From NCBI GenBank assembly GCA_016192455.1, contig JACPUC010000009.1:1-64000 (forward strand): a stretch of DNA of 64,000 nucleotides, given 5' to 3'. Position 1 is the first letter of the stretch; the number at the start of each line of letters is the position of its first letter. Positions 4,954 to 57,561 of the stretch are shown in pieces. This DNA comes from Candidatus Tectimicrobiota bacterium (GTDB taxonomy: Bacteria; JACPUC01). Under the pieces are notes generated by a model, which was not told the origin of the DNA, did not search any database, and saw only the letters and a list, made by a program, of their open reading frames with translations. The position numbers and the translations under genes are program-made.

Positions 4954-6867
4954 ATGAAGAAACTTACCCACGCGGACCCCGAAATCAAGTCCCCCGACCT
5001 CGTGGCGGAGAACATCGAGCAGCTCCAGGCGCTGTTCCCAGAAGCCATTACCGAGGGCAAGGTGGATTTCGAGGTGCTGAAACAGCTCCTCGGCGGCGCG
5101 GTGGAGGAGCGCGAGGAGAAGTACGGACTCAATTGGAACGGCAAGCGCCGCGCCCGCCAGCTCGCTCTCACCCCCTCCACTGGCACCCTGCGCCCCTGCC
5201 CGGAGGAGAGCGTGGATTGGGACACCACCCAGAACCTGATGATCGAGGGCGACAACCTTGAAGTCCTCAAGCTGCTCCAAAAATCCTACGCTGGGAAAGT
5301 GAAGCTCATCTACATCGACCCGCCCTATAACACCGGCAAGGACTTCGTCTATCCCGACAACTTCCGGGACAACATCCGCAACTACCTCGAACTCACCGGC
5401 CAAGTGGATGGCGAAGGCCGCAAGCTCTCCTCCAACACTGAAGCCTCCGGCCGCTTCCACACCGACTGGCTTAACATGATGTATCCGCGGCTGAAGCTGG
5501 CGAGGAATCTGTTGCAGGAGGACGGGGTACTTTTTATTTCGATTGATGACGGTGAAGTTAGCCATCTACGAAGCATTTGTGATGAGGTGTTCGGCCCGGA
5601 AAACTTCATAGCATTATTCGTCTGGGAGAAAAGGACAACGCGTGAGAACCGACGTGTTTTTTCATTCAACCACGAGTATGTGATGTGCGTCGCAAAGAAC
5701 AAACCAGAGTTTGAACAAACTCGCAATCTTCTGCCGACTACCGATGAAGTGCGCGAGCGCTACTCAAATCCGGACAATGATCCGCGAGGACCGTGGCAGT
5801 CTGTTTCTCTTAATGCTCAAGCCGGTCATGCCACGAAAGAACAGTTCTATTCCTTAACGACTCCAGGAGGCCGTGTTCTGCAACCACCGTCAGGCCGTTG
5901 CTGGGCGGTTACGAAACCCAAATTGGAAGAGCTTATTGCGGCCAACCGCGTTTGGTTCGGTGAAACGGGTCACAACGTTCCGCGCCGCAAACTTTTCCTT
6001 TCAGAGGCAAAGGACGGACTAACCCCCCACACTCTTTGGACTGCATCTGAGGTTGGAACAAATGATACGGCGAAGAAAGAACTCATCGAATTATTCGATG
6101 GCATAGAAGTGTTCGATACTCCTAAGCCGCTCGGTTTGATCGAGAGGATGATTGAACTCACTACAGACAAGTCGGACTTGGTTCTAGATTTTTTTGCTGG
6201 TGCAGGGCCAGCTGGCGAAGCAGTGTTCCGCAAAAATAGAGCAGACAGCAGCAACCGCCGCTACATCCTCGTCCAACTTCCCGAACCGCTTGATCCTGAC
6301 AACAAAGACCAGAAAACAGCCGCCGATTTCTGCGACAAACTTGGCAAGCCCCGCACCATCGCTGAACTGACCAAAGAGCGGCTGCGTCGGGCCGGAAAGA
6401 AGATTCGAGAGAAATATCCGCTGTTCGCGGGCGATCTTGGTTTCCGCGTCTTCAAGCTCGCCTCCAGTAACATCCACGCCTGGGAGCCGGACCGGGACAA
6501 CCTGCCGAAGACCCTTCAGGAGTCCATCGAGCACCTGAAGGCCGACCGCACCGAGGCGGACATCCTTTTCGAGGTGCTGCTCAAGCTCGGCCTCGATCTG
6601 ACGGTGCCGATTGAAGAGAAGGCCATCTCGGGCAAGACCGTCCATGGCATCGGCGCGGGAACGCTTCTGGTATGCCTCGCCGAACACATTGCCACCGCCG
6701 AAGTGGAGCCGCTTGCGCTGGGTATTGTGGGCTGGCGCAAGGCAATGGCCCCGGCGGGCGAAAGCACCGTGGTTTTCCGTGACAGCGCCTTTGCCGACGA
6801 CGTGGCGAAAACGAACCTCACCGCCATTCTCCAGCAGCACGGCCTGGAAAACGTGAGGAGCCTGTGA
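4954..6867 (+). CDS. mod: Type III R-M methyltransferase (Mod), beta-class
   Basis: IEGDNLEVLK, IYIDPPYNTG, HTDWLNMMYPRL, PKP and VLDFFAGAG motifs. Alternative ATG at 4945. Confidence 0.93.
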   Translation: MKKLTHADPEIKSPDLVAENIEQLQALFPEAITEGKVDFEVLKQLLGGAVEEREEKYGLNWNGKRRARQLALTPSTGTLRPCPEESVDWDTTQNLMIEGDNLEVLKLLQKSYAGKVKLIYIDPPYNTGKDFVYPDNFRDNIRNYLELTGQVDGEGRKLSSNTEASGRFHTDWLNMMYPRLKLARNLLQEDGVLFISIDDGEVSHLRSICDEVFGPENFIALFVWEKRTTRENRRVFSFNHEYVMCVAKNKPEFEQTRNLLPTTDEVRERYSNPDNDPRGPWQSVSLNAQAGHATKEQFYSLTTPGGRVLQPPSGRCWAVTKPKLEELIAANRVWFGETGHNVPRRKLFLSEAKDGLTPHTLWTASEVGTNDTAKKELIELFDGIEVFDTPKPLGLIERMIELTTDKSDLVLDFFAGAGPAGEAVFRKNRADSSNRRYILVQLPEPLDPDNKDQKTAADFCDKLGKPRTIAELTKERLRRAGKKIREKYPLFAGDLGFRVFKLASSNIHAWEPDRDNLPKTLQESIEHLKADRTEADILFEVLLKLGLDLTVPIEEKAISGKTVHGIGAGTLLVCLAEHIATAEVEPLALGIVGWRKAMAPAGESTVVFRDSAFADDVAKTNLTAILQQHGLENVRSL

Positions 6868-7961
6868 TGGCCCGGCGGACGCGCAATGGCGAACGCGGCG
6901 TGGGCGGGTCGGCTGGAGAGATTCTGCTCTACGAGACCGAAGATGGGCGCACGCGGGTGGAGTGCCGCTTCGCGGCAGAGAGCCTCTGGATGACGCAGGC
7001 GCTCATGGCGGAGTTGTTCCAGACAACCCCGCAGAACATCACCCTGCACCTGAAGGCGCTGTACCAGGAAGGTGAAATCAGCGAGGCGGCAACTTGTAAG
7101 GATTACTTACAAGTTCGCACCGAAGGCGGGCGCGAGGTGCGCCGCGCCGTGAAGCACTACAACCTGGACGCGATTCTGGCCGTGGGCTACCGGGTGCGCT
7201 CGCCGCGCGGCGCCCAGTTCCGCCAGTGGGCCACGGAGCGGTTGCGGGAGTATCTCGTCAAGGGCTTCACGCTGGATGACGAGCGGCTGAAGCACCCGCC
7301 GGTCGAGGGTTCGGGCGTACCGGACTACTTCGATGAGTTGCTGGAGCGCATCCGTGACATTCGCGCTAGTGAGGCGCGGATGTACCTGCGGGTACGCGAA
7401 ATCTTCGCCCTGGCCGCCGACTATGACCCGTCGCGGAAGGACACCACGACCTTCTTCCAGATCATGCAGAACAAGCTGCACTTCGCCGTGACAGGTCAGA
7501 CGGCCGCCGAGCTGATCGCCGCCCGCGCGGACCACGCGCAACCGAATATGGGTTTGACCAACTGGAAGGGCGGCCGGGTGAGCAAGGCCGATGTGACGGT
7601 GGCCAAGAACTACCTTGCGGGCGAGGAAATCAGCGAGCTTAACCGCATCGTGACCATGTGGCTGGACTTCGCCGAAGACCAGGCGCGGCGCCGGAAGCAA
7701 ATCTTCCTGAAGGCCTGGGAAACCAAGCTCAACGAGTTTCTCCGCTTCAGCGACCGCGTGGTGCTCGACGCCGCCGGCACCGTCAGCCACCAGCAGGCCG
7801 CGAGCAAGGCCGAAGCGGAATACGAGCAGTTCGCTGCACGGCGGCGCGGATTGCTGGAAGCGCAGGGCGAACAGGACAACATCGAGGCGCTGGAAGCAGC
7901 GGCAAAACAACTGGAGGCACCCAAGAAGCCGTCGACAGGGAAGCGGGGGAAGCACGAATGA
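6864..7961 (+). CDS. RhuM/virulence-family DNA-binding protein
   Basis: WMTQALMAELFQ, YNLDAILAVGYRVRS, FRQWAT, YFDELLERIRDIRASE, QNKLHFA motifs. Confidence 0.88.
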   Translation: MMARRTRNGERGVGGSAGEILLYETEDGRTRVECRFAAESLWMTQALMAELFQTTPQNITLHLKALYQEGEISEAATCKDYLQVRTEGGREVRRAVKHYNLDAILAVGYRVRSPRGAQFRQWATERLREYLVKGFTLDDERLKHPPVEGSGVPDYFDELLERIRDIRASEARMYLRVREIFALAADYDPSRKDTTTFFQIMQNKLHFAVTGQTAAELIAARADHAQPNMGLTNWKGGRVSKADVTVAKNYLAGEEISELNRIVTMWLDFAEDQARRRKQIFLKAWETKLNEFLRFSDRVVLDAAGTVSHQQAASKAEAEYEQFAARRRGLLEAQGEQDNIEALEAAAKQLEAPKKPSTGKRGKHE

Positions 7962-10927
7962 AGCTCCATTTTGAACCCAACCTGGACTATCAGCACGCCG
8001 CCATTGAGTCCGTCTGCGGCCTGTTCCGCGGGCAGGAAACCTGCCGCACCGAGTTCACGGTCACCCGTGGTGCGCTCGCGGCACAGCAACCCCTGCCCTT
8101 TGCCCAGAACGACCTCGGCATCGGCAACCGCCTGCACCTGCTGGATGATGAACTGCTGACCAACCTGAACGACATCCAGCTCCGCAACGGGCTGCGGCCT
8201 TCGGCCTCGCTGGCCTCGGGCGATTTCACGGTGGAGATGGAGACCGGCACGGGGAAGACCTACGTCTATCTGCGCACCATCGTCGAGTTGAACCGGCGTT
8301 ACGGCTTCACCAAGTTCGTCATCGTGGTCCCGTCCGTGGCGATCAAGGAGGGGGTATATAAGACCCTCCAGATCACCAAAGAGCACTTCCAGGCCCTCTA
8401 CGCCAATATCCCCTACGAGTTCTTCCTGTACGATTCGTCCAAGCTCGGCCAGGTGCGCAACTTTGCCACCAGCCCTCACATCCAGATCATGGTGGTGACG
8501 GTTGGGGCGATCAACAAGAAGGATGTGAACAACCTCTACAAGGACAGCGAGAAGACCGGCGGCGAGAAGCCCATTGACCTCATCAAGGCCACCCGCCCCA
8601 TCCTCATCGTAGACGAGCCGCAGAGCGTGGACGGCGGACTGGAAGGACGGGGCAAGGAAGCGCTCGGTGCAATGAACCCGCTGTGCACGCTGCGCTACTC
8701 CGCCACCCATGCCGACAAGCATCATATGGTCTCTCGCCTTGACGCGGTGGACGCGTATGAGCGCAAGCTGGTGAAGCAGATCGAGGTGGCCTCCCTGGAA
8801 GTGGAAGGCGGGCACAACAAGGCTTACGTCAAGCTGCTCTCCACGAGTAACAGGAAGGGCGTGTTCGGCGCCAGGGTCGAACTCGACGTGCAGCGCGGCA
8901 CGAGCGTGAGCCGGGAGCCGGTCACCGTGAAGCCGGGCGATGACCTCCAGCAGGTCACGAACGGACGCGCCGTCTATGCCGATTGCATGGTGCAAAGCAT
9001 CGGCTGCAAGGCCGGCGAGGAGTATCTCGAACTGAGCAATTTGGAACAACCGCTACGCGTCGGCGAAACGGTCGGGGACATTGACAACGATGCTCTTAAG
9101 CGGCTCATGATCCGGCGCACCATCGAAGAGCATCTGGACAAGGAGCTGCGCCTTGCCCCGCAGGGCATCAAGGTCCTGAGCCTGTTTTTCATCGACGCCG
9201 TCGAACACTACCGTGGCTACACCGCGGACGGCGCCCAGGTGAAGGGAAAGTATGCGGTGATGTTCGAGGAAGAGTACCGCAAGGCTGCCGCCAAGCCGAA
9301 GTACCAGAGCTTGTTCAAGGAGGTTGACTTGGAATCCGAGGCCACGGACGTGCACGACGGATATTTCTCCATCGACAGGAAGGGGACGTGGACGGACACT
9401 GCCGAGAACACCCAAGGCAACCGCGACAACGCCGAACGCGCCTACAACCTCATCATGCGAGACAAGGAGAAGCTGCTGAGCTTTGAGACGAAGCTGAAGT
9501 TCATCTTCTCCCACTCCGCCTTGCGCGAGGGCTGGGACAACCCGAATGTACTCCAGATTTGTGCCATCAGGGAAATCGGCACCGAGATCGAGCGCCGCCA
9601 GACCATTGGTCGCGGGCTGCGGCTCTGCGTGAATCAGCGGGGCCAACGCCTGCGGGGTTTCGACATCAACACGCTGACGGTTATTGCCAACGAGAGCTAC
9701 GAGCAGTTCGCCGAAAACTTGCAGAAGGAGATCGAGGCCGATACTGGCCTCCGTTTTGGCATCGTCGAGAAGCACCAGTTTGCCGCCATCCCGGTGACAG
9801 ACGCAGCGGGGCGGACCACAGCCCTGGGCGTGCCGCAGTCGGAAGCTATCTGGATGCACCTCAAGGAGGCGGGTTACATTGACGCCAAGGGGAAGGTACA
9901 TGACCACCTGCGAAAGGCGCTTAAGGATGACACGCTACAACTCCCGGAGCCGTTCCAGGCTCAGCTCCCGCAGGTGAAGGAAGTCCTCCGCAAGCTCGCG
10001 GGGAAATTAGACATCAAGAACGCCGATGAGCGCAGGTCGATCAAGACCCGGCAGGCGGTGCTGCACAGCGAGGAGTTTCAGGCGCTCTGGAACCGCATCA
10101 AGCACAAGACCACGTACCGCGTGCAGTTTGATAACGAGAAGCTGATGACGGAGTGCGCCAAGGCTATTGGGGAATGCCCTCCCATCAGCATGACCCGCGT
10201 GCAGATTCGGAAAGCCGATCTGGCCATCGGTCGAGGCGGCGTCTCTTCGGAGGAAACCGCCGCAGCCGCTCCGACCACGATTGAAGAAACCGATATCGAA
10301 TTGCCCGATTTACTGACCGACCTCCAGGACAAGACCCAGCTCACCCGCCGCAGCCTGGTGCGCATTCTGATTGATAGCGGCCGCCTCGATGACTTCAAGC
10401 TGAACCCGCAACAATTCATCGAGCGGACGACCGAATCCATAAACCGCACCAAGCGCCTTGCCCTGGTGGACGGCATCAAATACCAGCGCATCGGCGACGA
10501 GTACTATTACGCCCAGGAACTCTTTGAGCATGAGGAACTGACAGGTTACCTTAAGAACATGCTGGCCGCGAATAAGTCCGTCCACGAGCATATTGTGTAT
10601 GACTCTGGAGTAGAAGCAACATTTGCCGAGCAACTGGAAAAGAACGAAGCCGTGAAGGTCTATGCCAAGCTCCCCGGCTGGTTCAAAGTCCCGACGCCGC
10701 TTGGCGCCTACAACCCAGACTGGGCCGTGCTGGTTGAGAAAGACGGTGCGGAACGCCTCTACTTTGTGGTCGAAACCAAGGGCGGCCTCTTCCCTGACGA
10801 GCTGCGCGACAAGGAGAGAGCCAAGATCGAGTGTGGCAAAGAGCACTTCAAGGCACTGGCCGCCGGTGAAAGACCCGTAGAGTTCATCCAGGCCAGGAAC
10901 ATCGACGACCTGATGGCACACTGCTAG
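7958..10927 (+). CDS. res: Type III R-M restriction subunit (Res)
   Basis: FTVEMETGTGKT, IVDEPQ, RYSATH, HSALREGWDNPNV, QTIGRGLR and C-terminal YNPDWA...VETKG nuclease. Start at ATG 7958 overlaps the RhuM stop. Confidence 0.93.
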   Translation: MKLHFEPNLDYQHAAIESVCGLFRGQETCRTEFTVTRGALAAQQPLPFAQNDLGIGNRLHLLDDELLTNLNDIQLRNGLRPSASLASGDFTVEMETGTGKTYVYLRTIVELNRRYGFTKFVIVVPSVAIKEGVYKTLQITKEHFQALYANIPYEFFLYDSSKLGQVRNFATSPHIQIMVVTVGAINKKDVNNLYKDSEKTGGEKPIDLIKATRPILIVDEPQSVDGGLEGRGKEALGAMNPLCTLRYSATHADKHHMVSRLDAVDAYERKLVKQIEVASLEVEGGHNKAYVKLLSTSNRKGVFGARVELDVQRGTSVSREPVTVKPGDDLQQVTNGRAVYADCMVQSIGCKAGEEYLELSNLEQPLRVGETVGDIDNDALKRLMIRRTIEEHLDKELRLAPQGIKVLSLFFIDAVEHYRGYTADGAQVKGKYAVMFEEEYRKAAAKPKYQSLFKEVDLESEATDVHDGYFSIDRKGTWTDTAENTQGNRDNAERAYNLIMRDKEKLLSFETKLKFIFSHSALREGWDNPNVLQICAIREIGTEIERRQTIGRGLRLCVNQRGQRLRGFDINTLTVIANESYEQFAENLQKEIEADTGLRFGIVEKHQFAAIPVTDAAGRTTALGVPQSEAIWMHLKEAGYIDAKGKVHDHLRKALKDDTLQLPEPFQAQLPQVKEVLRKLAGKLDIKNADERRSIKTRQAVLHSEEFQALWNRIKHKTTYRVQFDNEKLMTECAKAIGECPPISMTRVQIRKADLAIGRGGVSSEETAAAAPTTIEETDIELPDLLTDLQDKTQLTRRSLVRILIDSGRLDDFKLNPQQFIERTTESINRTKRLALVDGIKYQRIGDEYYYAQELFEHEELTGYLKNMLAANKSVHEHIVYDSGVEATFAEQLEKNEAVKVYAKLPGWFKVPTPLGAYNPDWAVLVEKDGAERLYFVVETKGGLFPDELRDKERAKIECGKEHFKALAAGERPVEFIQARNIDDLMAHC

Positions 10928-49299: not shown

Positions 49300-50622
<1,323 letters not shown>

Positions 50623-50808
50623 GCGCCGGCCCGCCGCCGCCGCGGCCAAGGGCAGACCACCCCGCGGCGCGAGCGGCGTCGGGGCAGGCGAGTCCCCCCC
50701 CCGGCGTTGGGAGCGCGGGCGCCCCCTCCGCAACGGCAACGTCATCGCCCGTCGGCCGCCCCGGAGGAGGACTTCCCACCCCACCTTCAGCGCCCATGCA
50801 GACTGGCC

Positions 50809-50837
50809 TTGACCTCACGCCGCGCAGGCCGCATAAT
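50809..50837 (+). promoter_or_regulatory. Sigma70-type promoter of tRNA-Thr
   Basis: TTGACC-17 nt-CATAAT, 47 nt upstream of the tRNA. Confidence 0.6.
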
Positions 50838-50884
50838 GCCCCCCGAAGCCAGAGCGCTTCATCCCGCCATCTCGTCTCACCGTG

Positions 50885-50959
<75 letters not shown>

Positions 50960-51100
50960 GGTTTTCAATTCTTCTGAAAAACTTCGTCGACCTAGGGGTG
51001 CGGAACAGCGCGTCCGCGGAGAGCATAGAGCATAGAGAAGAGAGGAATCACATCGACACGTAGACTTCGAAAGATCGGCTCATCCCCCCCTCTCACGCCC

Positions 51101-53851
51101 TCACACCGCGTACACCTTCAATACCTCGTCGCCGTAATGGTTGATGACCTTGATGGCGATCTTGCCGGTCTCCGGGGGGTCGAAGGGGCGGCTGGTGGTG
51201 CTGTAGAGGCTGGCCCAGGCGGCCTCGTCGATCTCCGCGCGCAGGGCGCGTTTCAGCTTGTCGTACGGCTCCTCGGCGCCGGTGAAGTAGGCGTGCCGCA
51301 CGAAGAAGCTCTCCTCGTCGTAGTTGGTGTCGATGAACCAGCAGGCGATGTCGTCGGTCGAGGAGGTGCGAATCTGCCCCGTGGTCGGGTCGTAGACATC
51401 CAGGCCCTTGATCGCAACGACGAACTGATCCGCGGATTTCACAGATTCGCGCAGATTTCTCTTATCTGTGGTCATCTGCGTCATCTGTGGATGAATTCTC
51501 CGAATTTCCACGTCCGGCTCGCCGAAGACCATGAAGAGGTTGGCGGCGCCGCTCTTCTTCAGCAGCTCCTCCCCCATCATCAGGTCGGGGTTCATGCGCG
51601 TCACCAGCACCGTCAGGTCGCCGTAGCGTTTCGCCTCCTCGGAGACGTGCGGGTCGAAGGCGAAGCCGCACACCACCAGCACGTCGAATCGCACCCCCTG
51701 CAGCGCCTCCTTCGCCGCCTCGTGGATGTGCTCCGCTCCCACCGTGCCGTGCTCGGGGCCGATGGAGACGGCCACGCGCTTGCTGGCGCCGTCACTGCCG
51801 GCGTACTCCCCGGCGGCCTGCAGCCAGCGGCCGGCGAACGGCTCCAGGCGCTCGAAGCGCAGGCGCTCGGCCTTGCGGGTGTTCTGCACGCCGGCCTTCT
51901 TGAGGTTGTCCAGGATCATAACGGCGAAATCATCCACGGATTTCACAGATGAACGCCGATAATTCTTAGGGGTATCCGCAGATTGCACAGATGAACACAG
52001 ATGGGTTGAACCCTTCTTCTTCTCATCGGTGTCCTCCGTGGATAACGTTCTGTGCGGCGACAGGCTCTCGACGGTGAACGGCCCGGCGACGCGCGCCCGC
52101 GAGCTGTCTGGGTACGGCTGGTCGTAGAGGGTCTCCTGATCGGCGTGGCGGGTAATGGCGGCGTCGATCTCGGCGCGCGTCATCCCCTCGCGGATGTCGG
52201 GGTTGTTGGCGATGGATTTCAGCGTCACGTGCGGCACGCGCTTGTAGACGAACCCCTTGCGGATGTCGGGAAGGGAGCTATCCACAGAGGACACAGAAGG
52301 CACAGATTTTCGCAGATAGTTTTTGATCTCTTCATCTGTGTTCATCGGTGTAATCTGTGGATAGGCATCGGCGAGGTAATAGTAGGGATATTTAGCGGCC
52401 ATCAGGCGCGTGCGCGCCAGGGCCAGGGCCACGCGGCTGGTGTCGATGGTGATCCAGCGCCGCCCCCATTGCTCGGCGACGTAGGCCGTCGTGCCGCTGC
52501 CGCAGGTGGGGTCCAACACGAGGTCGCCGGGGTCGGTGGTCATGAGGAGGCAGCGGGAAACGACATCGGTATTTGTTTGAACTGCATAAATCTTCGCCTC
52601 TCCGAAACCGCCTGCACGCACATCATCCCAGTAATTCGATATTCTTACTACCGGATAGTCATCCGCAAACATTTTGTAACGAAGATACTTGCCAGAGACA
52701 ATAAGCCTATTTGCAGTTTCTAACTTTCGCATTCCCTCTTTAGTAGTTCGCCAGTAATATCCAGGTAACGGGCTAAACTTGTACCCTTGAAATTCGTAGA
52801 TAAAATGTGTTGTCTTTCCACCACTGTCAGAATATATACTGCTTGGCATAAATCGCTTGCCTATAAGTTGATTTGATTCGAGGTTTTCTGAACGTGTTAG
52901 CCTTCTACATGATCCATCAATTGATTCGATCATTGTGTAAGCTGCTTCTATAGTGGTTGACTTCCGAAGGATATAAAGTGAACGAACCTTAGTATGTTCT
53001 GTAGACTTAGAATACCAAATAAGGTAATCACCCGAAGAATCTATATGACCACTGCCCTTACCAGTGGTTTTAAGAAAGAAAATCAGCCCGCAGAAATTCT
53101 CACTCCCAAACACCTCATCCATCAAACACCGCACGAGGTGCACATTCTCATCCCCAATCTGCACGAAGACGCTGCCCGTCTCCGTCAGCAGCTCGCGCGC
53201 CGCCACCAGCCTATCCCGCAGGTAGGCCAGGTAGGAGTGAATCCCCAGCTTCCAGGTGTCGCGGAAGGCCCTGATCTGTTCCGGCTCGCGGCTGGCGTCC
53301 TCGGCCTTGCCGTCTTTCACGTCGCGCTTGCGGGTGCTCACCTGCCAGTTGGAGCCGAACTTGATGCCGTAGGGGGGGTCGAGGTAGATCGTCTGCACCT
53401 TCCCCTTCAGCCCCTCCTTCTCCGCCAGGCTGGTCATGACGAGGAGCGAGTCGCCGAGGATCATGCGGTTCGACCAGTTGGCGTCGTACTGGTAGAACTC
53501 CACCTTCTTGTCGAACCCGTCGATGCCGTTGAAGTCGGCGAAGAGGTCGAGCTGCTCCTGTTTCGGTTTGCCGCCGCGCCGCCGCAGGTCCTCGATGAGC
53601 GCCTGGGGGTGAATCTTCTCCTGGATGTAGACCGGCGCCACCGGCACGGCGAGGTCTTCGCGGTCCTGCTCGTCTTTCCCCTTCCAGACGAGCTGCGGGT
53701 CAAGCGACGGGTCGCGCGGGTAGAGCATGGTTCGCGGCGCCGCCTCCTCCTCGGCCACGAAGCCGCGCAGCTCCTCGGTGGGGATGTTGCGCCGCTTGTC
53801 CTTGTGGCGCAGGGACTCGACACTGGTCATCCTGGTGTTCTTTTTGGCCAT
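51101..53851 (-). CDS. Type III-like DNA methyltransferase (Mod), beta-class, containing three in-frame palindrome clusters
   Basis: NRMILGDSL, YLDPPYGIKF, VLDPTCGSGTT, KVINHYGDE; repeat-derived peptides such as HPQMTQMTTD and NLRESVKSAD. Confidence 0.9.
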   Translation of the reverse strand: MAKKNTRMTSVESLRHKDKRRNIPTEELRGFVAEEEAAPRTMLYPRDPSLDPQLVWKGKDEQDREDLAVPVAPVYIQEKIHPQALIEDLRRRGGKPKQEQLDLFADFNGIDGFDKKVEFYQYDANWSNRMILGDSLLVMTSLAEKEGLKGKVQTIYLDPPYGIKFGSNWQVSTRKRDVKDGKAEDASREPEQIRAFRDTWKLGIHSYLAYLRDRLVAARELLTETGSVFVQIGDENVHLVRCLMDEVFGSENFCGLIFFLKTTGKGSGHIDSSGDYLIWYSKSTEHTKVRSLYILRKSTTIEAAYTMIESIDGSCRRLTRSENLESNQLIGKRFMPSSIYSDSGGKTTHFIYEFQGYKFSPLPGYYWRTTKEGMRKLETANRLIVSGKYLRYKMFADDYPVVRISNYWDDVRAGGFGEAKIYAVQTNTDVVSRCLLMTTDPGDLVLDPTCGSGTTAYVAEQWGRRWITIDTSRVALALARTRLMAAKYPYYYLADAYPQITPMNTDEEIKNYLRKSVPSVSSVDSSLPDIRKGFVYKRVPHVTLKSIANNPDIREGMTRAEIDAAITRHADQETLYDQPYPDSSRARVAGPFTVESLSPHRTLSTEDTDEKKKGSTHLCSSVQSADTPKNYRRSSVKSVDDFAVMILDNLKKAGVQNTRKAERLRFERLEPFAGRWLQAAGEYAGSDGASKRVAVSIGPEHGTVGAEHIHEAAKEALQGVRFDVLVVCGFAFDPHVSEEAKRYGDLTVLVTRMNPDLMMGEELLKKSGAANLFMVFGEPDVEIRRIHPQMTQMTTDKRNLRESVKSADQFVVAIKGLDVYDPTTGQIRTSSTDDIACWFIDTNYDEESFFVRHAYFTGAEEPYDKLKRALRAEIDEAAWASLYSTTSRPFDPPETGKIAIKVINHYGDEVLKVYAV
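51428..51492. repeat. CAGAT-arm inverted pair inside the methyltransferase
   Basis: atccgcggatttcacagattcgcgcagat ... atctgtggtcatctgcgtcatctgtggat. Confidence 0.9.
51932..52043. repeat. CAGAT-arm cluster (two direct arms, one shorter inverted arm) inside the methyltransferase
   Basis: 51932-51960 atccacggatttcacagatgaacgccgat; 51974-52002 atccgcagattgcacagatgaacacagat; 52025-52043 atcggtgtcctccgtggat. Confidence 0.9.
52279..52363. repeat. CAGAT-arm inverted pair inside the methyltransferase
   Basis: tatccacagaggacacagaaggcacagattttcgcagat ... atctgtgttcatcggtgtaatctgtggata. Confidence 0.9.
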
Positions 53852-53965
53852 GATTCAATCCGCCGATTGCGCCGATTTGCGCAGATTCAGGGACTCGACT
53901 TTGGTCGTCCTGGTGTTCTTTTTGGCCATGATTCAATCCGCCGATTGCGCAGATTTGCGCAGATT
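53810..53965. repeat. 78-bp tandem duplication (mod 5' end plus one CAGAT arm)
   Basis: 53810-53887 versus 53888-53965, 4 mismatches. Confidence 0.95.
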
Positions 53966-54361
53966 GGAGAATACAAAACGCCTAAATTCAAGACTCGGGC
54001 GGCCGAAGTTCAGCAGCAACCCGCGCTCCAGGCGTGTTGCCTTGAGGTAGTTCAAGAGCTGTGCTTCCTCGACGCCAGTGATGGCGTGCAGCGCCTTCAA
54101 CTCGATGATAACGCTTTCATAGCAGACAAAATCCGCCCGGTACGAGCAGGCCAGCGGCTGCTCCTTATAATACACCGGCAACTCCACTTCGCGCGCGAAC
54201 GGAATGGCTCGGACCGCGAATTCAATCGCGAGCGCCTGCTGGTAGACAGCCTCCAGGAATCCCGGGCCAAGTTCTCGATGAACCTCCATCGCCGCGCCGA
54301 TGACGGCGTGTGTTTGTTGGTCCTTTGAATCTGCGTCAATCTGCGAAATCCGCGGATTCAT
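53933..54361 (-). CDS. GxxExxY protein (PD-(D/E)XK nuclease fold) bounded by 31-bp inverted repeats
   Basis: VIGAAMEVHRELGPGFLEAVYQ, RADFV...IIELKA, QLLNYLKAT, GLLLNFG; inverted repeats at 53935-53965 and 54328-54358. Confidence 0.93.
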   Translation of the reverse strand: MNPRISQIDADSKDQQTHAVIGAAMEVHRELGPGFLEAVYQQALAIEFAVRAIPFAREVELPVYYKEQPLACSYRADFVCYESVIIELKALHAITGVEEAQLLNYLKATRLERGLLLNFGRPSLEFRRFVFSNLRKSAQSAD

Positions 54362-57256
54362 TTTTGCTCACCGATAAAGCCGCGGATGAGAGTTTGCGCG
54401 TTCCACGGGTCGGTGATCTCGATGAACGCCCAGCGCCCGAAGCCGCCGTGGTTGTTGACCGCCGGCGCCCACAGGTTGCGCGCCGTACTCACCTTCGCCT
54501 CCTTCTCGGCCCTTCGCTCACCCGTCACCTCGATGATGAGGTTCAGCAGGTCGTCCGGCCCGCGGCCGTCGTCGACGCGGGCGATGAAATCGGGATGGTA
54601 CTGCTTCTCCTCGTTGAAGAGCGTGTAGGGGATCGTGAAGCCGAGGTTCTGGTTCTTCACGTAGGCGGCGACCTCCTCCATCTCCTCCAGGCTCTCGGCC
54701 ATCTTCTGCTCCCAGGAGCCGGTGTCGGCCACCACGTGCGACACATGGCATTTGTCGGGGCGGGTGTCGTAGGTGCTGCGCCGCGTGGTGAAATCGACGT
54801 AGCGGGTCGAGCCGAGGGTGTCGTAGGGGTGCAGGATCGGCTTCAGGCGCGGCTCGCCGCCGGAGGAGGCAACGATGGCCCGGTAGACGCGGTCGGCGGC
54901 GTCGTGCGCCCACTCGACGAGCAGGAGGAGCTGCGGGAAGGTGTTGTCATGGCAGGTGACGCATTCATCCAGCCAACGCTTGGTGATGCCGAGCACCTGC
55001 GGGAAGAGCCAGGGCTTGTCGTTGCCGTCATCGTCGCGAAAGTATTTCTCCAGCGTCAGCTTTCCCAGAAGGAAGGCGACCTCGTTCATGCGCCTGCGCT
55101 TCAGGTCGTCCAGGGTGAGGATGACGGTCTCCCCCACGATAGGGGCGTTCTCGGTCTTCGTCGGCAGGTCGTGCGTGCTCAGGGTGAGGTTCGAGTCCTC
55201 CGTGAACATGGCGCTGAGGCGCTGCGTGGGCAGATCGTAGCGGTACCCGAGCAGGCGCGGGAAGGTGATCTCGCAGGCGATGCGCTCCTCCAGGGCGCGC
55301 ACGCGGGTGGTCTGCCGCCCCGGCTGCGGTCCCTTCGTTGAGCCGGAGCAGGGGATGAAATCGAAGGGGACGCCGTAGACCTCGGCATACTCCGGCTCGA
55401 AGCAGCCGTCGTCGTTCAGGGCGTAATCCATGCGGCGCAGCGCCCGGCCCACCACCTGCTCGCAGAGGAGCTGCGTGCCGAAGGCGCGCACGCCGAGGAT
55501 GTGGGTCACGGTGTTCGCGTCCCAGCCCTCGGTGAGCATGGAGACGCTGACCACGCAGCTTCTCGGGGTCGCGCCCCGGAAAGCGCTGGCGGTACTCCGC
55601 CTTGAACTCCTCGATCTCCCTGGCGGCGATCTTCTTGAACTCGGCGCTCATGCCCTCGCCGGATTCAAGCTGCTGGCTGTCCACGAGGATGGTGTTGGGA
55701 CGGCGCAGCCAGCCGCCGCGGCCGTCGTCGTTGCGGAAGAACTTCAGGTTGCCGGCTTGCACCAACGTCGTGTCCCCGAGCGGCTTTTCCCAGCCGGCGA
55801 TGTAGTCGAACACCAACTTCGAGACGTTCGTGTTGTTGCAGACGACGATGAAGACAGGCGGGGTGAGGTTCGTAGCCGTGGCCGTCGAGCTTGCTTCCCA
55901 CAGGCGGTAGTACTGCTCATAGTTGCCGTAGAGGCTTTGCAGCGCCCCTTCCAGCTCCTTGGGAAGCTGCGGTTCGCCCACCACCGCCTCGGTCTTGCGG
56001 CCTTTGCGAGGCAGGTGTTCGCGGATCCGCGGCCAGAGGTTGCGGTAGGTGGGCTGCTCGCCAATCATGGAGTCATCCGCCACCGGCACGCGCGGCACCT
56101 TGACGATGCCTGATTCGATGGCGTCGATGAGGGAAAAGTCCGAAACCACCCAGGGAAAGAGCGTCCCCTCCTTGTAGCCGGAGCCGCGCAGGAAGAAGGG
56201 GGTGGCCGAGAGGTCGTAGATGACCTTGGCGCCGAGTTTCGCCTTCACCGCCTCAAGGCCGGAAATCCAGACGCGCGCCTCCTCGTTGCGCGTCTCCGCT
56301 TCCCTGCGTTCGTCGCTGCTCAGTTTCTCCTCATCGGTTTCGGGACGGCGCCGGTAGCAATGGTGCGCCTCATCGTTGAGAACGACGATGTTCTTTTTGC
56401 CGCCGAGCTCGCGGCAGGCGCGCCGCACCATCTGCTGAGGCGTTTCGGTGAACGCTCCATCGGCGCCCTGGGCGAGAATCGCCTTGGTGAGTTTGCCGGC
56501 GGCGACCTTCTCCCGCGGTTGGAAGGCGTGGAAGTTCGTGATGATGATCTTGGCCTGCTCCAGCCGTTCCATCTGGTGAGCCGGCAGGAGGTCCCACTGG
56601 CGGTAGTAGTTGTTGGGGTCGTTCGGCAGCAACACGCGCAGGCGGTCGCGCACGGTGATGCCGGGGGTGACGATGAGGAAGGTGTCGGAGAAGAGCTTAC
56701 CCTGGCGATCGGCCAGCTTGTTCAGCATGTGCCAGGCGATGAGCATGGCCATGACGACGGTCTTTCCGGTGCCGGTGGCCATCTTCATGGCGAGGCGCGG
56801 CAGGCCGGGGTTGGCCGCGTCGTTGGCGTCGCGCAGGTGGTTCGCAAGCCATTCGTCGCCGCACTTCGCCGCCGCCTCGGTGAGGTAGATGACCGTCTCA
56901 ACCGCCTCAATCTGGCAGAAGAAGAGCTTTGTATCGCGCTCGGGGTTGGTCCAGTACTTCAGCAGCTCGCGGGTCGTCGAGGTGATGCCGTGGTACTTCC
57001 CCCGCCGCCACAGGGCGACGCGCTCAGGGATGCGGTTGACGGTCTGGTTCTCTTCAAGACGGTCTTTCGTCCATTCGCCGTAGAGGTCGAGCTGCTTGCC
57101 GCGCTTCCTGGGCCGCGGCACCGGCACGAAGTAGGCGCTGCTGCGCCGTTCCTCGATGATCTCGTCGGTAATGCCGTCGTCGTCGAACTTGAAGTGGCGC
57201 CGCGGCTCCGCAAAGGGAGAGTTGAGGATGGGGTTTTCGATGACGACTGGAGGCAT
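54358..57256 (-). pseudogene. Type III-like restriction helicase-nuclease (Res), split by a deletion/frameshift at ~55558
   Basis: N-terminal part FFCQIEA, MATGTGKT, NDEAHHCY, DLSATP; C-terminal part CVVSVSMLTEGWD, QVVGRALRR, YHPDFI...EVTG in another frame. Confidence 0.88.
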
Positions 57257-57270
57257 GGGGTGGGCTCCGT

Positions 57271-57299
57271 CTCTCCGCGTCCTCCGCGTCTCCGCGGTG
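57271..57299. repeat. Single CAGAG-variant arm just upstream of res
   Basis: ctctccgcgtcctccgcgtctccgcggtg, similar to 19928-19953 and to the reverse complement of 19967-19991. Confidence 0.75.
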
Positions 57300-57348
57300 C
57301 GTTACTGCTCGTAGTGGGCGGGCCCGCGGCGCCTTACCGTTTCCTGTT

Positions 57349-57561
57349 TCAACGAGCTTGCGGAACCGATTCGAACAGCAGCCGCCGGATGTCGATCTCC
57401 GGCGCTCGCTTCGAGAGGTACAGCATCTCGATGCCGACGACGCGGCCGTGCTCGTCGTAATCCACGATGATGCCGGGCGAGACTTCCTCGGAATTGCTGG
57501 CGGGCGCTTCGCCCAAGGTCAAGTGCAGGGCGTCGGCCTGTTGATCCACTTTGAGCTTCAT
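57349..57561 (-). CDS. DUF2283 family small protein (putative antitoxin)
   Basis: MKLKVDQQADALHL...SEEVSPGIIVDYDEHGRVVGIEML; AAGGAGG RBS. Confidence 0.82.
   Translation of the reverse strand: MKLKVDQQADALHLTLGEAPASNSEEVSPGIIVDYDEHGRVVGIEMLYLSKRAPEIDIRRLLFESVPQAR

What the first reader, a model, noticed from the sequence alone, without database searches (positions are those of the whole stretch)
51428..52363. Three palindromic repeat clusters translated in frame inside one methyltransferase
Seen: arm clusters at 51428-51492, 51932-52043 and 52279-52363 all lie within the uninterrupted 916-aa Mod ORF. They contribute peptides HPQMTQMTTDKRNLRESVKSAD, STEDTD...HLCSSVQSAD...YRRSSVKSVD and YPQITPMNTD...YLRKSVPSVSSVD, which echo the GxxExxY termini. 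They are more AT-rich than the flanking codons and avoid the DPPY and DPTCGSG motifs. Known: Rickettsia palindromic elements insert in frame into surface loops. Inference: repeated local targeting of the gene next to GxxExxY, with selection keeping the frame, creates new protein loops. From recall of this family the sites are variable linkers, so native sequence may have been replaced rather than only extended.
Basis: partly seen in the sequence, partly recalled or inferred. Interest (0 to 1): 0.85.

Follow-up and report, generated by a model that had tools for sequence, protein, structure and literature searches.

The report
Hairpin repeats translated inside a methyltransferase
Three copies of a small hairpin-forming repeat are read as protein loops inside an intact DNA methyltransferase gene, and related genes from other bacterial phyla carry the same or other repeats in the same loops, so these loops are tolerant landing places rather than targets of the neighbouring gene.

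Summary
Three clusters of 30-nt repeat arms lie at 51428-51492, 51932-52043 and 52279-52363. All are in frame in an uninterrupted 916-aa Mod ORF (51101-53851, minus strand). They are AT-richer than their flanks, fold as hairpins, and sit away from the DPPY and DPTCGSG motifs. Single-run contigs span all three without a difference.

The arms are the ones that flank the neighbouring GxxExxY (PF13366/TIGR04256) gene. Each arm is three ~10-nt GCAGAT sub-repeats.

Compared with about 280 homologues, the clusters replace native linker sequence, with net gains of +10, +17 and +19 aa. In a good AlphaFold model one site is a disordered linker and one is a beta-hairpin tip.

- The same cassettes sit at the same positions in Mod homologues of other phyla, and only 1 of 80 species genomes has a GxxExxY gene nearby.
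- Site A shares its 15-nt spacer with a Planctomycetaceae copy.
- The Mod-internal arms are a different subtype from the neighbour's arms.
- Other repeat families, and once a whole Y1 transposase, occupy the same loops.

This scan has noted the same cassette family in at least 30 other genomes. I class it as an RPE-like case, a new variant of a known kind.

The parts
51101..53851 (-). Mod methyltransferase ORF, 916 aa, intact. Beta-class N6/N4 MTase with a 390-aa C-terminal region that matched no solved structure.
   Evidence: PF01555, 1.2e-27; Foldseek best hits are type III Mod subunits 6k0w and 4zcf, E 1e-19 to 1e-18. D158, P159, P160, D447, G451 and G453 are invariant in 101 aligned sequences.
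51428..51492 (-). Cluster C: arm, 6-nt spacer, inverted arm. Read as HPQMTQMTTDKRNLRESVKSAD (residues about 787-808). Net +19 aa compared with homologues.
   Evidence: (z -3.5). In the AlphaFold model it sits at the tip of the hairpin E780-786/E809-820, pLDDT 54-67.
51932..52043 (-). Cluster B: a degenerate left arm (52015-52043) plus two tandem right arms (51974-52003 and 51932-51961, a 42-nt in-frame duplication). Residues about 603-641. Net +17 aa.
   Evidence: family D1, spacing 42; z -3.3. The model has pLDDT 34-51 across 600-636, i.e. a disordered linker.
52279..52363 (-). Cluster A: left arm (52334-52363), 15-nt spacer, and a right arm with one extra 9-nt sub-repeat (52279-52318). Residues about 496-525. 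Net +10 aa. Replaces the native SPEGIKKE..KTEG linker.
   Evidence: (z -6.9). It lies directly after the last MTase helix (H473-485). The model puts a helix at 506-515, pLDDT 72-92.
53933..54361 (-). GxxExxY / PD-(D/E)XK_3 gene, 142 aa. Its first and last codons are read from its own inverted arms (54328-54357 and 53936-53965). Its ATG overlaps the Res stop (ATGA).
   Evidence: I5, 87% complementary; PF13366, 4e-41; TIGR04256, 6e-44.
53810..53965 (-). 78-nt tandem duplication (95% identical) of [arm + TGAATC + first 14 codons of Mod]. The upstream copy would end in a stop after 24 codons.
   Evidence: (D3).
54358..57256 (-). Res gene (BPTD_3080 family restriction endonuclease). In the window it reads as two frames that meet near 55556-55559.
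   Evidence: profile positions 1-543 and 578-966; contigs run on into unlike letters on both sides of 55556-55559.
52560..53130 (-). Low-GC block (0.35-0.42) inside Mod, residues about 240-430. This is the variable, presumed target-recognition region.
   Evidence: The same stretch has no consensus in the alignments.
50885..50959 (+). tRNA-Thr (CGT), 142 nt beyond the Mod stop.

Best explanation
The three clusters are gene-less hairpin copies of a dispersed repeat. Its 30-nt arms, each three ~10-nt GCAGAT sub-repeats, also frame GxxExxY nuclease genes. The copies lie in three weakly constrained linkers of a type III-like Mod methyltransferase and are translated as hydrophilic loops of the form xPQITQMNTD...NLRKSxKSAD.

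Shown:
- They replace native linker residues.
- They keep the frame and leave the catalytic motifs intact.
- The same loops in homologues from many phyla hold the same element or unrelated repeat families.

Inferred:
- The loops are permissive sites. Selection for a working Mod, which must protect the cell from its Res partner, removes every insertion except in-frame, stop-free ones in such loops.
- The copies in this gene came with the gene lineage, or with recombined patches of it, rather than from the neighbouring cassette.
- Slippage between sub-repeats then made the in-frame duplications (42 nt in B, 9 nt in A, 78 nt at the Mod start).

The enzyme that moves the element is unknown. The GxxExxY PD-(D/E)XK protein acting in trans is the obvious candidate but is untested.
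For: Family and anatomy:
- Arms are defined. The genome has 33 strict arm matches.
- Its 3 GxxExxY genes all have arm-like hits nearby.
- Free copies are 56-60-nt palindromes.

Replacement in linkers:
- Most homologues have 47, 49 and 32 residues between fixed anchors around the three sites. The query has 57, 66 and 51 (alignment blocks).

Permissive loops:
- Lengthening of 6 aa or more occurs at site A in 25 of 119 and 15 of 158 homologues, and at site C in 19 of 119 and 10 of 157.
- At least four other repeat-peptide families occupy these sites, and one whole PF01797 transposase sits in frame at site A (P0097).

Structure (mean pLDDT 86.7, pTM 0.89):
- Site B is disordered.
- Site C is a hairpin tip.
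- Site A follows the last MTase helix.

Not local:
- An arm in L013 is 28 of 29 identical to the window's cassette arm (my count of the sequences printed).

Co-occurrence with the family:
- The two species genomes with arms in or abutting Mod have 12 and 10 pattern matches.
- 44 of the 55 genomes searched have 0-1.

A second in-frame copy in this genome:
- C23:304903-304962 is 60 nt, in the interdomain linker of a GT4 glycosyltransferase.
Against: - No target-site duplication or empty-site allele was found, so insertion as such is inferred from comparison, not seen.
- At site B in P0006 the repeat peptide replaces 20 native residues with exactly 20. At site A the 'spacer' EEIKNY aligns with native EGIKKE. 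Simple insertion does not predict either; both fit patch conversion, or selection on loop length.
- Eight of the genome's 33 strict arms lie within 3 kb here. That is a local excess the 'came with the gene' reading must explain as import of the whole block.
- The A-rich arm subtype could also have arisen in place by drift. The positions counted are not independent.
- Nine genomes with 4 to 76 arm matches have native Mod loops, so carrying the family does not predict insertion.
- Mod activity was not tested.
Confidence: 0.7

Rival explanations
1. One reading: the neighbouring GxxExxY cassette, or its enzyme, repeatedly hit the adjacent Mod gene in this genome, and selection kept the in-frame products.
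For: - 8 of the genome's 33 strict arm matches lie in 51428-54357.
- All 9 window matches lie there.
- The arms are of the same family as the cassette arms (20-26 of 29 identical).
Against: - The same cassettes sit at the same positions in other phyla without a GxxExxY neighbour.
- The site-A spacer is shared with L013.
- The Mod-internal arms have 10 of 15 A at core purines, against 0 of 9 in the neighbouring cassette arms.
- Free copies in this genome have almost no spacer, while sites A and C have 15 and 6 nt.
Confidence: 0.12
2. Patch transfer or homing. The loop cassettes spread between Mod alleles at fixed positions by double-strand-break repair or plain homologous recombination after horizontal transfer, carrying a little flanking sequence with them. 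This is a sub-mechanism compatible with the best explanation.
For: - Bearers are scattered on the backbone tree. The fewest changes are 7-9 for A, 2 for B and 7 for C.
- The AU test rejects one clade of the 15 site-A bearers (delta lnL 196, p 3.6e-7, 50 rows).
- The residue next to site A (Y492) goes with the cassette: 13 of 15 bearers against 3 of 105 others. No other column is as strongly linked.
- The spacer is shared across phyla.
- The gene is visibly mosaic, with a 0.40-GC variable block in a 0.70-GC backbone.
- P0006 shows an equal-length replacement at site B.
Against: - The trees are FastTree or quick IQ-TREE with many weak forks.
- The bearer group was named after a first tree had been seen.
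- The linked tract is a single residue, which could equally be a compensating change.
- No DNA of most bearers could be fetched, so no breakpoints were mapped.
- No Mod among 270 proteins carries a GxxExxY domain in frame.
Confidence: 0.3
3. The peptides are native, conserved loops of this Mod subfamily, and the likeness to the repeat arms is secondary or coincidental.
For: Degenerate versions of the site-A cassette persist at constant length in several homologues (P0021, P0034, P0059, L020). They behave like ordinary protein sequence.
Against: - The DNA arms match the dispersed family at 20-26 of 29 positions and fold as hairpins.
- Most homologues have an unrelated linker.
- The chance expectation for the arm pattern is 0.01 per window.
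Confidence: 0.03
4. Assembly artefact: repeat-induced chimeric joins placed the arms inside the ORF.
For: - This MAG does contain an unsupported join only 3 kb away, in Res at 55556-55559.
- Some low-depth contigs join arms of different clusters (table 5c).
Against: Contigs of three separate runs cross the clusters with 0 differences (records 2, 18, 26). The ORF stays open through all three.
Confidence: 0.02

Closest known systems
Rickettsia palindromic elements (RPEs). Ogata et al. 2000 and 2002, as described in the review PMC10969869 (passages read).
   Same: - Short palindromic repeats inserted in frame in unrelated protein genes.
- Translated as extra peptide segments judged compatible with fold and function.
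- Also present between genes.
   Different: - The arm structure differs: three helically phased ~10-nt sub-repeats per arm.
- Free copies are about 59 nt; RPEs are about 150 bp.
- The family is found across many phyla, not one genus.
- Full-length relatives carry a GxxExxY nuclease gene.
- Here native loop residues are replaced, and the same loops recur in homologues.
REP/REPIN elements with their RAYT (Y1, PF01797) transposases.
   Same: A dispersed hairpin repeat plus a small gene framed by the same repeat. A REP-plus-RAYT unit sits in frame at site A of homologue P0097.
   Different: The framed gene here is a PD-(D/E)XK (PF13366) protein, not a Y1 transposase. The genome's single PF01797 match (C2:40511-40744) has no GCAGAT-arm hit near it.
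23S rRNA intervening sequences carrying an S23p ORF (Coxiella; PMC4990558, search listing and start of abstract only).
   Same: A small selfish cassette with an ORF.
   Different: The host site is protein-coding or an operon junction, not rRNA. The cargo family differs.
GxxExxY-cassette notes of this scan (e1-801008, e1-760404, e1-710594, e1-2397929, e1-1162413, e1-818345; AI notes).
   Same: The same kind of element: inverted arrays of 10-11-nt repeats, with or without a GxxExxY gene, found at gene junctions and in frame in proteins.
   Different: Here there are three gene-less copies in one defence gene. There is recurrence at fixed loops across a horizontally spread gene family, and evidence that the copies travel with the gene or its patches.

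Membership tests
Type III-like R-M Mod (beta-class N6/N4 DNA methyltransferase, PF01555) | PF01555 domain above Pfam's cut-off | tested here: met
   97.7 bits against a cut-off of 26.7, residues 152-477.
Type III-like R-M Mod (beta-class N6/N4 DNA methyltransferase, PF01555) | Catalytic DPPY and SAM-binding motif present and conserved (motif names are from my own knowledge) | tested here: met
   DPPY at 158-161 and DPTCGSG at 447-453. D158, P159, P160, D447, G451 and G453 are invariant in 101 sequences.
Type III-like R-M Mod (beta-class N6/N4 DNA methyltransferase, PF01555) | Fold resembles solved type III Mod subunits | tested here: met
   Foldseek hits 6k0w_A (E 1.3e-19) and 4zcf_A EcoP15I Mod (2.4e-18), probability 1.00. 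TM-scores are low (0.21-0.39) because the protein has several domains.
Type III-like R-M Mod (beta-class N6/N4 DNA methyltransferase, PF01555) | Partner restriction gene in the same operon | tested here: met
   NF046055 BPTD_3080 family restriction endonuclease lies upstream on the same strand. The same res-to-mod order is seen in 114 of the 126 loci where I could place a Mod start.
Type III-like R-M Mod (beta-class N6/N4 DNA methyltransferase, PF01555) | Methyltransferase activity with the three extra loops | not testable with these tools
   Needs a methylome or a cloned-gene assay.
In-frame palindromic elements (RPE-like / intragenic MITEs) | Hairpin-forming inverted repeat | tested here: met
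   z -3.5, -3.3 and -6.9.
In-frame palindromic elements (RPE-like / intragenic MITEs) | Dispersed multi-copy family in the same genome, also between genes | tested here: met
   33 strict arm matches on 9 contigs. Many 56-60-nt pairs lie in intergenic gaps of a phage-like gene row on C23.
In-frame palindromic elements (RPE-like / intragenic MITEs) | Present in some orthologues and absent in others at the same position | tested here: met
In-frame palindromic elements (RPE-like / intragenic MITEs) | Target-site duplication at the ends (MITE criterion) | tested here: inconclusive
   No flanking direct repeat is evident in the codon-level views. The native sequence before insertion is unknown, because the closest homologue is 71% identical.
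In-frame palindromic elements (RPE-like / intragenic MITEs) | Sequence membership in an RPE family | not tested
   No RPE reference sequence was on hand. Rfam gave no relevant match in 50500-57500.
GxxExxY cassette with phased-repeat arms (this scan's working family; I found no description in print) | The same arms frame a TIGR04256/PF13366 gene | tested here: met
   A second cassette at C27:144.6-145.2 kb has the same arm type.
GxxExxY cassette with phased-repeat arms (this scan's working family; I found no description in print) | Arms built of ~10-nt sub-repeats in phase | tested here: met
   Consensus ATCCGCAGATTnCGCaGATtncgcagatT from 33 arms.
GxxExxY cassette with phased-repeat arms (this scan's working family; I found no description in print) | Mobility, and dependence on the GxxExxY protein | not testable with these tools
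   Only presence/absence patterns are available. PF13366 function is listed as 'Unknown' in PMC3424549 (table row read).
REP/RAYT | A Y1 transposase (PF01797) associated with the repeat | tested here: not met
   The genome has one PF01797 match (C2:40511-40744). No GCAGAT-arm hit lies near it, and it is flanked by a different repeat peptide.

The most novel reading that the evidence does not exclude
The gene-less hairpin cassettes are copied between alleles of this horizontally travelling Mod gene at fixed positions by a homing-like process: a cut at or near the loop, perhaps by a GxxExxY nuclease acting in trans, then repair from an occupied allele. Unlike introns and inteins they are never removed, and they stay in the protein as a loop. 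This would explain the identical positions, the shared spacer across phyla, the bearers scattered on the gene tree, the linked neighbouring residue, and replacement without change of length.
Probability: 0.15. Interest if true: 0.8.

Novelty: new variant of a known kind. Interest (0 to 1): 0.5.

Why it matters
This shows outside Rickettsia, and across many phyla, that small selfish hairpin repeats become lasting parts of proteins. It also identifies a widely transferred restriction-modification gene pair whose few tolerant loops, and whose res-mod junction, collect such elements from each host.

That gives a natural map of where this enzyme family accepts insertions.

It also gives a tractable test case for two open questions:
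- How the GxxExxY-framed repeats move. I found no description of them in print. 'GxxExxY' occurs in 3 papers and 'PDDEXK_3'/'PF13366' in 2, and in the passages or listings I saw none describes a cassette.
- Whether loop cassettes spread between alleles by recombination.

Tried and rejected
- Kin comparison: the phylum search reached only the window's own genome, and 60 'relatives' were all 'same domain' only. No close relative could show an empty site.
- First AlphaFold run, with 75 close sequences: mean pLDDT 57.4, pTM 0.33. Discarded for the second run with 101 more diverse sequences.
- Arm-like core motifs in native Mod genes as possible targets (155 genes). Small peaks appear at the left edges of sites A (8), B (6) and D (21), but equal or larger peaks appear where nothing inserts (residues 104, 588, 841). 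Inconclusive.
- In-frame GxxExxY domain in Mod homologues: 0 of 270 proteins.
- Rfam: only tRNA-Thr above threshold in 50500-57500.
- One search's comparison with 'other genomic' arms was out of register (identities 8-11 of 29). I dropped it and redid the question by core purines.
- No RNA holder was listed among the sequencing runs.
- In one search a low-depth contig skips 51362-51511, with only 30 letters on its shorter side. I read it as another organism's Mod that matches the conserved flanks, not as an empty site.
- The peptide regex wrongly scored P0013 at site B as an arm. I do not count it.
- Supplementary files of the papers were not seen.
Full report
**What is there**

The minus strand of 51101-53851 is one open frame of 916 aa with a PF01555 DNA-methylase domain at residues 152-477.
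- By sequence, its nearest solved relatives are type III Mod subunits (6k0w, EcoP15I 4zcf).
- A good AlphaFold model (101-sequence alignment, mean pLDDT 86.7, pTM 0.89) gives the same answer by fold (6k0w_A E 1.3e-19, 4zcf_A 2.4e-18).

Upstream on the same strand lie two genes:
- A 142-aa GxxExxY / PD-(D/E)XK_3 gene at 53933-54361 (PF13366 4e-41, TIGR04256 6e-44).
- A BPTD_3080-family restriction endonuclease gene at 54358-57256 (NF046055).

A tRNA-Thr gene lies 142 nt beyond the Mod stop.

**The repeat**

The GxxExxY gene is framed by inverted 30-nt arms, 54328-54357 against 53936-53965, 87% complementary. Each arm is three ~10-nt sub-repeats. From 33 strict matches in the 4.46-Mb genome the consensus is ATCCGCAGATTnCGCaGATtncgcagatT.

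Free copies are 56-60-nt palindromes with almost no spacer. Many sit in the intergenic gaps of a phage-like gene row on contig C23, which includes a tail tube protein (PF18906) and a cell-wall hydrolase (PF07486).

The genome has three PF13366 genes. The one on C27 has the same arm type, and the one on C3 a related CCACGGATG type.

**Checking the observation**

- The arm pattern, with up to one mismatch, has 9 matches in the window, all between 51428 and 54357. Shuffles give 0.01 expected. Six of the nine lie in the Mod ORF at the three stated clusters.
- The clusters have GC 0.42-0.48, against 0.65-0.80 beside them.
- They fold as hairpins (z -3.5, -3.3, -6.9).
- They encode the quoted peptides.
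- Cluster B is a left arm plus two tandem right arms, a 42-nt in-frame duplication. Cluster A's right arm has one extra 9-nt sub-repeat compared with the copy in L013.
- Contigs assembled from single sequencing runs cover 51333-52468 and 51333-53368 without a difference. All four runs are from one study, which may be the MAG's own source.

**Insertion or replacement**

I compared three sets of homologues:
- 119 close homologues, typically 870-877 aa long.
- 79 Mod genes from species-representative genomes.
- 79 Mod genes from metagenome contigs.

Between fixed anchors most homologues have 47, 49 and 32 residues where the query has 57, 66 and 51. The native linkers are:
- Site A: SPEGIKKE..KTEG
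- Site B: ADENQDGTV..KQQ
- Site C: KKQKDG

These are largely gone in the query. This is replacement, with net gains of +10, +17 and +19 aa, which accounts for the extra length of 916 aa.

In the model:
- Site B lies in a stretch of pLDDT 34-51 (residues 600-636).
- Site C is the tip of the hairpin E780-786/E809-820.
- Site A follows the last methylase helix and contains a predicted helix at 506-515.

**The same loops elsewhere**

Arm peptides occur at:
- Site A in 13 of the 119 close homologues, plus degenerate forms in P0011, P0021, P0034 and P0059.
- Site C in 7 of 119.
- Site B in 1 (P0006, same length as native).
- A fourth site near residue 685 in 1 (P0019).

That set is biased, because a shared insert raises a homologue's rank. 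In the less biased 158 loci only two have fresh arms: L013 (Planctomycetaceae MAG, site A) and L100 (site C). L020 is degenerate.

Other repeat-peptide families fill the same loops: PLNPP..KGE..GRG, VGAG.VPAQ, GQDARAT and AQDDK types. In P0097 a whole Y1 transposase (PF01797) with its flanking repeats is read in frame at site A.

Lengthening by 6 aa or more is seen at site A in 15 of 158 loci and at site C in 10 of 157. These are permissive loops that collect each host's repeats.

**Local targeting?**

Several results argue against it.
- A GxxExxY gene lies near Mod in only 1 of 80 species-genome loci (L018).
- The window's site-A cassette and L013's are the same unit, including the 15-nt spacer (3 differences), and their flanking codons differ mostly at third positions.
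- The Mod-internal arms have A at 10 of 15 core purine positions. The three arms of the adjacent cassette have 0 of 9, and the 25 arms elsewhere in the genome 13 of 74 (Fisher p 1e-4; the positions are not independent).
- The family does co-occur with occupied genes. The genomes of L013 and L024 have 12 and 10 pattern matches, against 0 for the reversed control, and 44 of the 55 genomes searched have 0-1.
- But nine genomes with 4 to 76 matches have native loops.

The one point in favour is that 8 of the genome's 33 arms lie in this 3-kb block. Import of the block as a unit explains that equally well.

**How the cassettes are distributed**

- On trees built without the loop columns the bearers are scattered. 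The fewest changes are 7-9 for A, 2 for B and 7 for C.
- An AU test rejects a single clade of the 15 site-A bearers (delta lnL 196, p 3.6e-7). The group was named after a first tree had been seen.
- Only the residue next to the site (Y492) goes with the cassette, 13 of 15 against 3 of 105.
- The gene is visibly mosaic: its variable region (52560-53130) has GC about 0.40.

Together these point to recombination of patches between alleles, or to repeated insertion at one spot. I cannot separate the two without the bearers' DNA.

**Surroundings**

Res comes before Mod in 114 of the 126 loci where I could place a Mod start. In 53 of the 114 the gap is 110 nt or less, and in 61 it holds 300-3900 nt of cargo. 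This agrees with earlier notes of this scan that the junction is a cargo slot. Here the slot holds the GxxExxY cassette. Its ATG overlaps the Res stop, and the cassette ends 6 nt before the Mod start.

The apparent frameshift in Res is probably an assembly gap. No listed contig crosses 55474-55556. The contigs on either side run on into unlike letters, which I translated by eye to KDEDLLREVM and KPGRLGEHV. Those are the residues that homologous Res proteins have at that place.

**Verdict**

The clusters are in-frame, gene-less copies of the GxxExxY-cassette arms in permissive linkers. The nearest described parallel is the Rickettsia palindromic elements (review PMC10969869, passages read).

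The proposed cause, targeting by the neighbour, is not supported. The copies more likely travel with the gene or with patches of it.

This scan has already noted the same cassette family in at least 30 other genomes. I found no description of it in print (supplementary files not seen).

Noticed in passing
window 55474-55560: The Res gene reads as two frames (profile positions 1-543 and 578-966). Single-run contigs stop at 55556-55559 and continue into letters that encode the missing residues, so the 'frameshift' looks like an assembly gap of about 70 nt, not a broken gene.
   Followed up: partly
window 52560-53130: A 570-nt block of GC 0.35-0.42 lies inside a Mod backbone of GC about 0.70. It coincides with the variable (presumed target-recognition) region, residues about 240-430. 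It looks like a recent swap of specificity domain from a low-GC donor.
   Followed up: no
window 53810-53965: A 78-nt tandem duplication (95% identical) of one cassette arm plus the first 14 codons of Mod. The upstream copy would give a 24-codon mini-ORF ending in the arm's TGA.
   Followed up: partly
G000 C23:304903-304962 (L093:4904-4963): A second in-frame palindrome, 60 nt, read in another frame as SADYADATDFNRRNRRNLRIS. It sits in the interdomain linker of a GT4 'conflict-system' glycosyltransferase (PF20706, 6e-17). The same ORF also ends inside another palindrome (304270-304325).
   Followed up: partly
G000 C23:284000-305000 (L092, L093): A phage-like gene row (tail tube PF18906, cell-wall hydrolase PF07486) has one 56-60-nt palindrome of this family in nearly every intergenic gap.
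   Followed up: partly
G000 C2:38705-42901 (L176:706-4902, minus strand): A 1399-aa open frame (stop to stop) contains a Y1 transposase domain (PF01797, 9e-8) in frame at residues 721-797. It is flanked by GVPPA-type repeat peptides and preceded by a weak D12 methylase match (19.6 bits, below the cut-off). This is a second case in this genome of a mobile unit read through in frame, from a different repeat family.
   Followed up: partly
L024:5740-8823 and L013:1497-4505, 6518-9511: The Res and Mod genes of other hosts also carry in-frame repeat peptides of other families: MGFQPMNHRQDADATSHGQDARAT in L024 Res; SPSQGEGRGEGP in L013 Res; three further inserts in L013 Mod. In L024 an arm of the GCAGAT family closes a cargo ORF about 15 nt before the Mod start; from its sequence I take that ORF to be DUF1016-like (my reading, not tested).
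   Followed up: partly
window 54374-54387 and loci: The Res C-terminal codons for LIRGF read CTCATCCGCGG(A/C)TT in many homologues, which mimics the arm's terminal core. The cassette sits about 20 nt downstream of it. This may be chance or a preferred landing sequence.
   Followed up: no
genomes G097, G068, G105: The arm pattern is abundant (76, 43 and 25 matches) in genomes labelled as quite different phyla. In G097 most pairs are about 200 nt apart, which suggests another gene-less or small-cargo form of the element.
   Followed up: no
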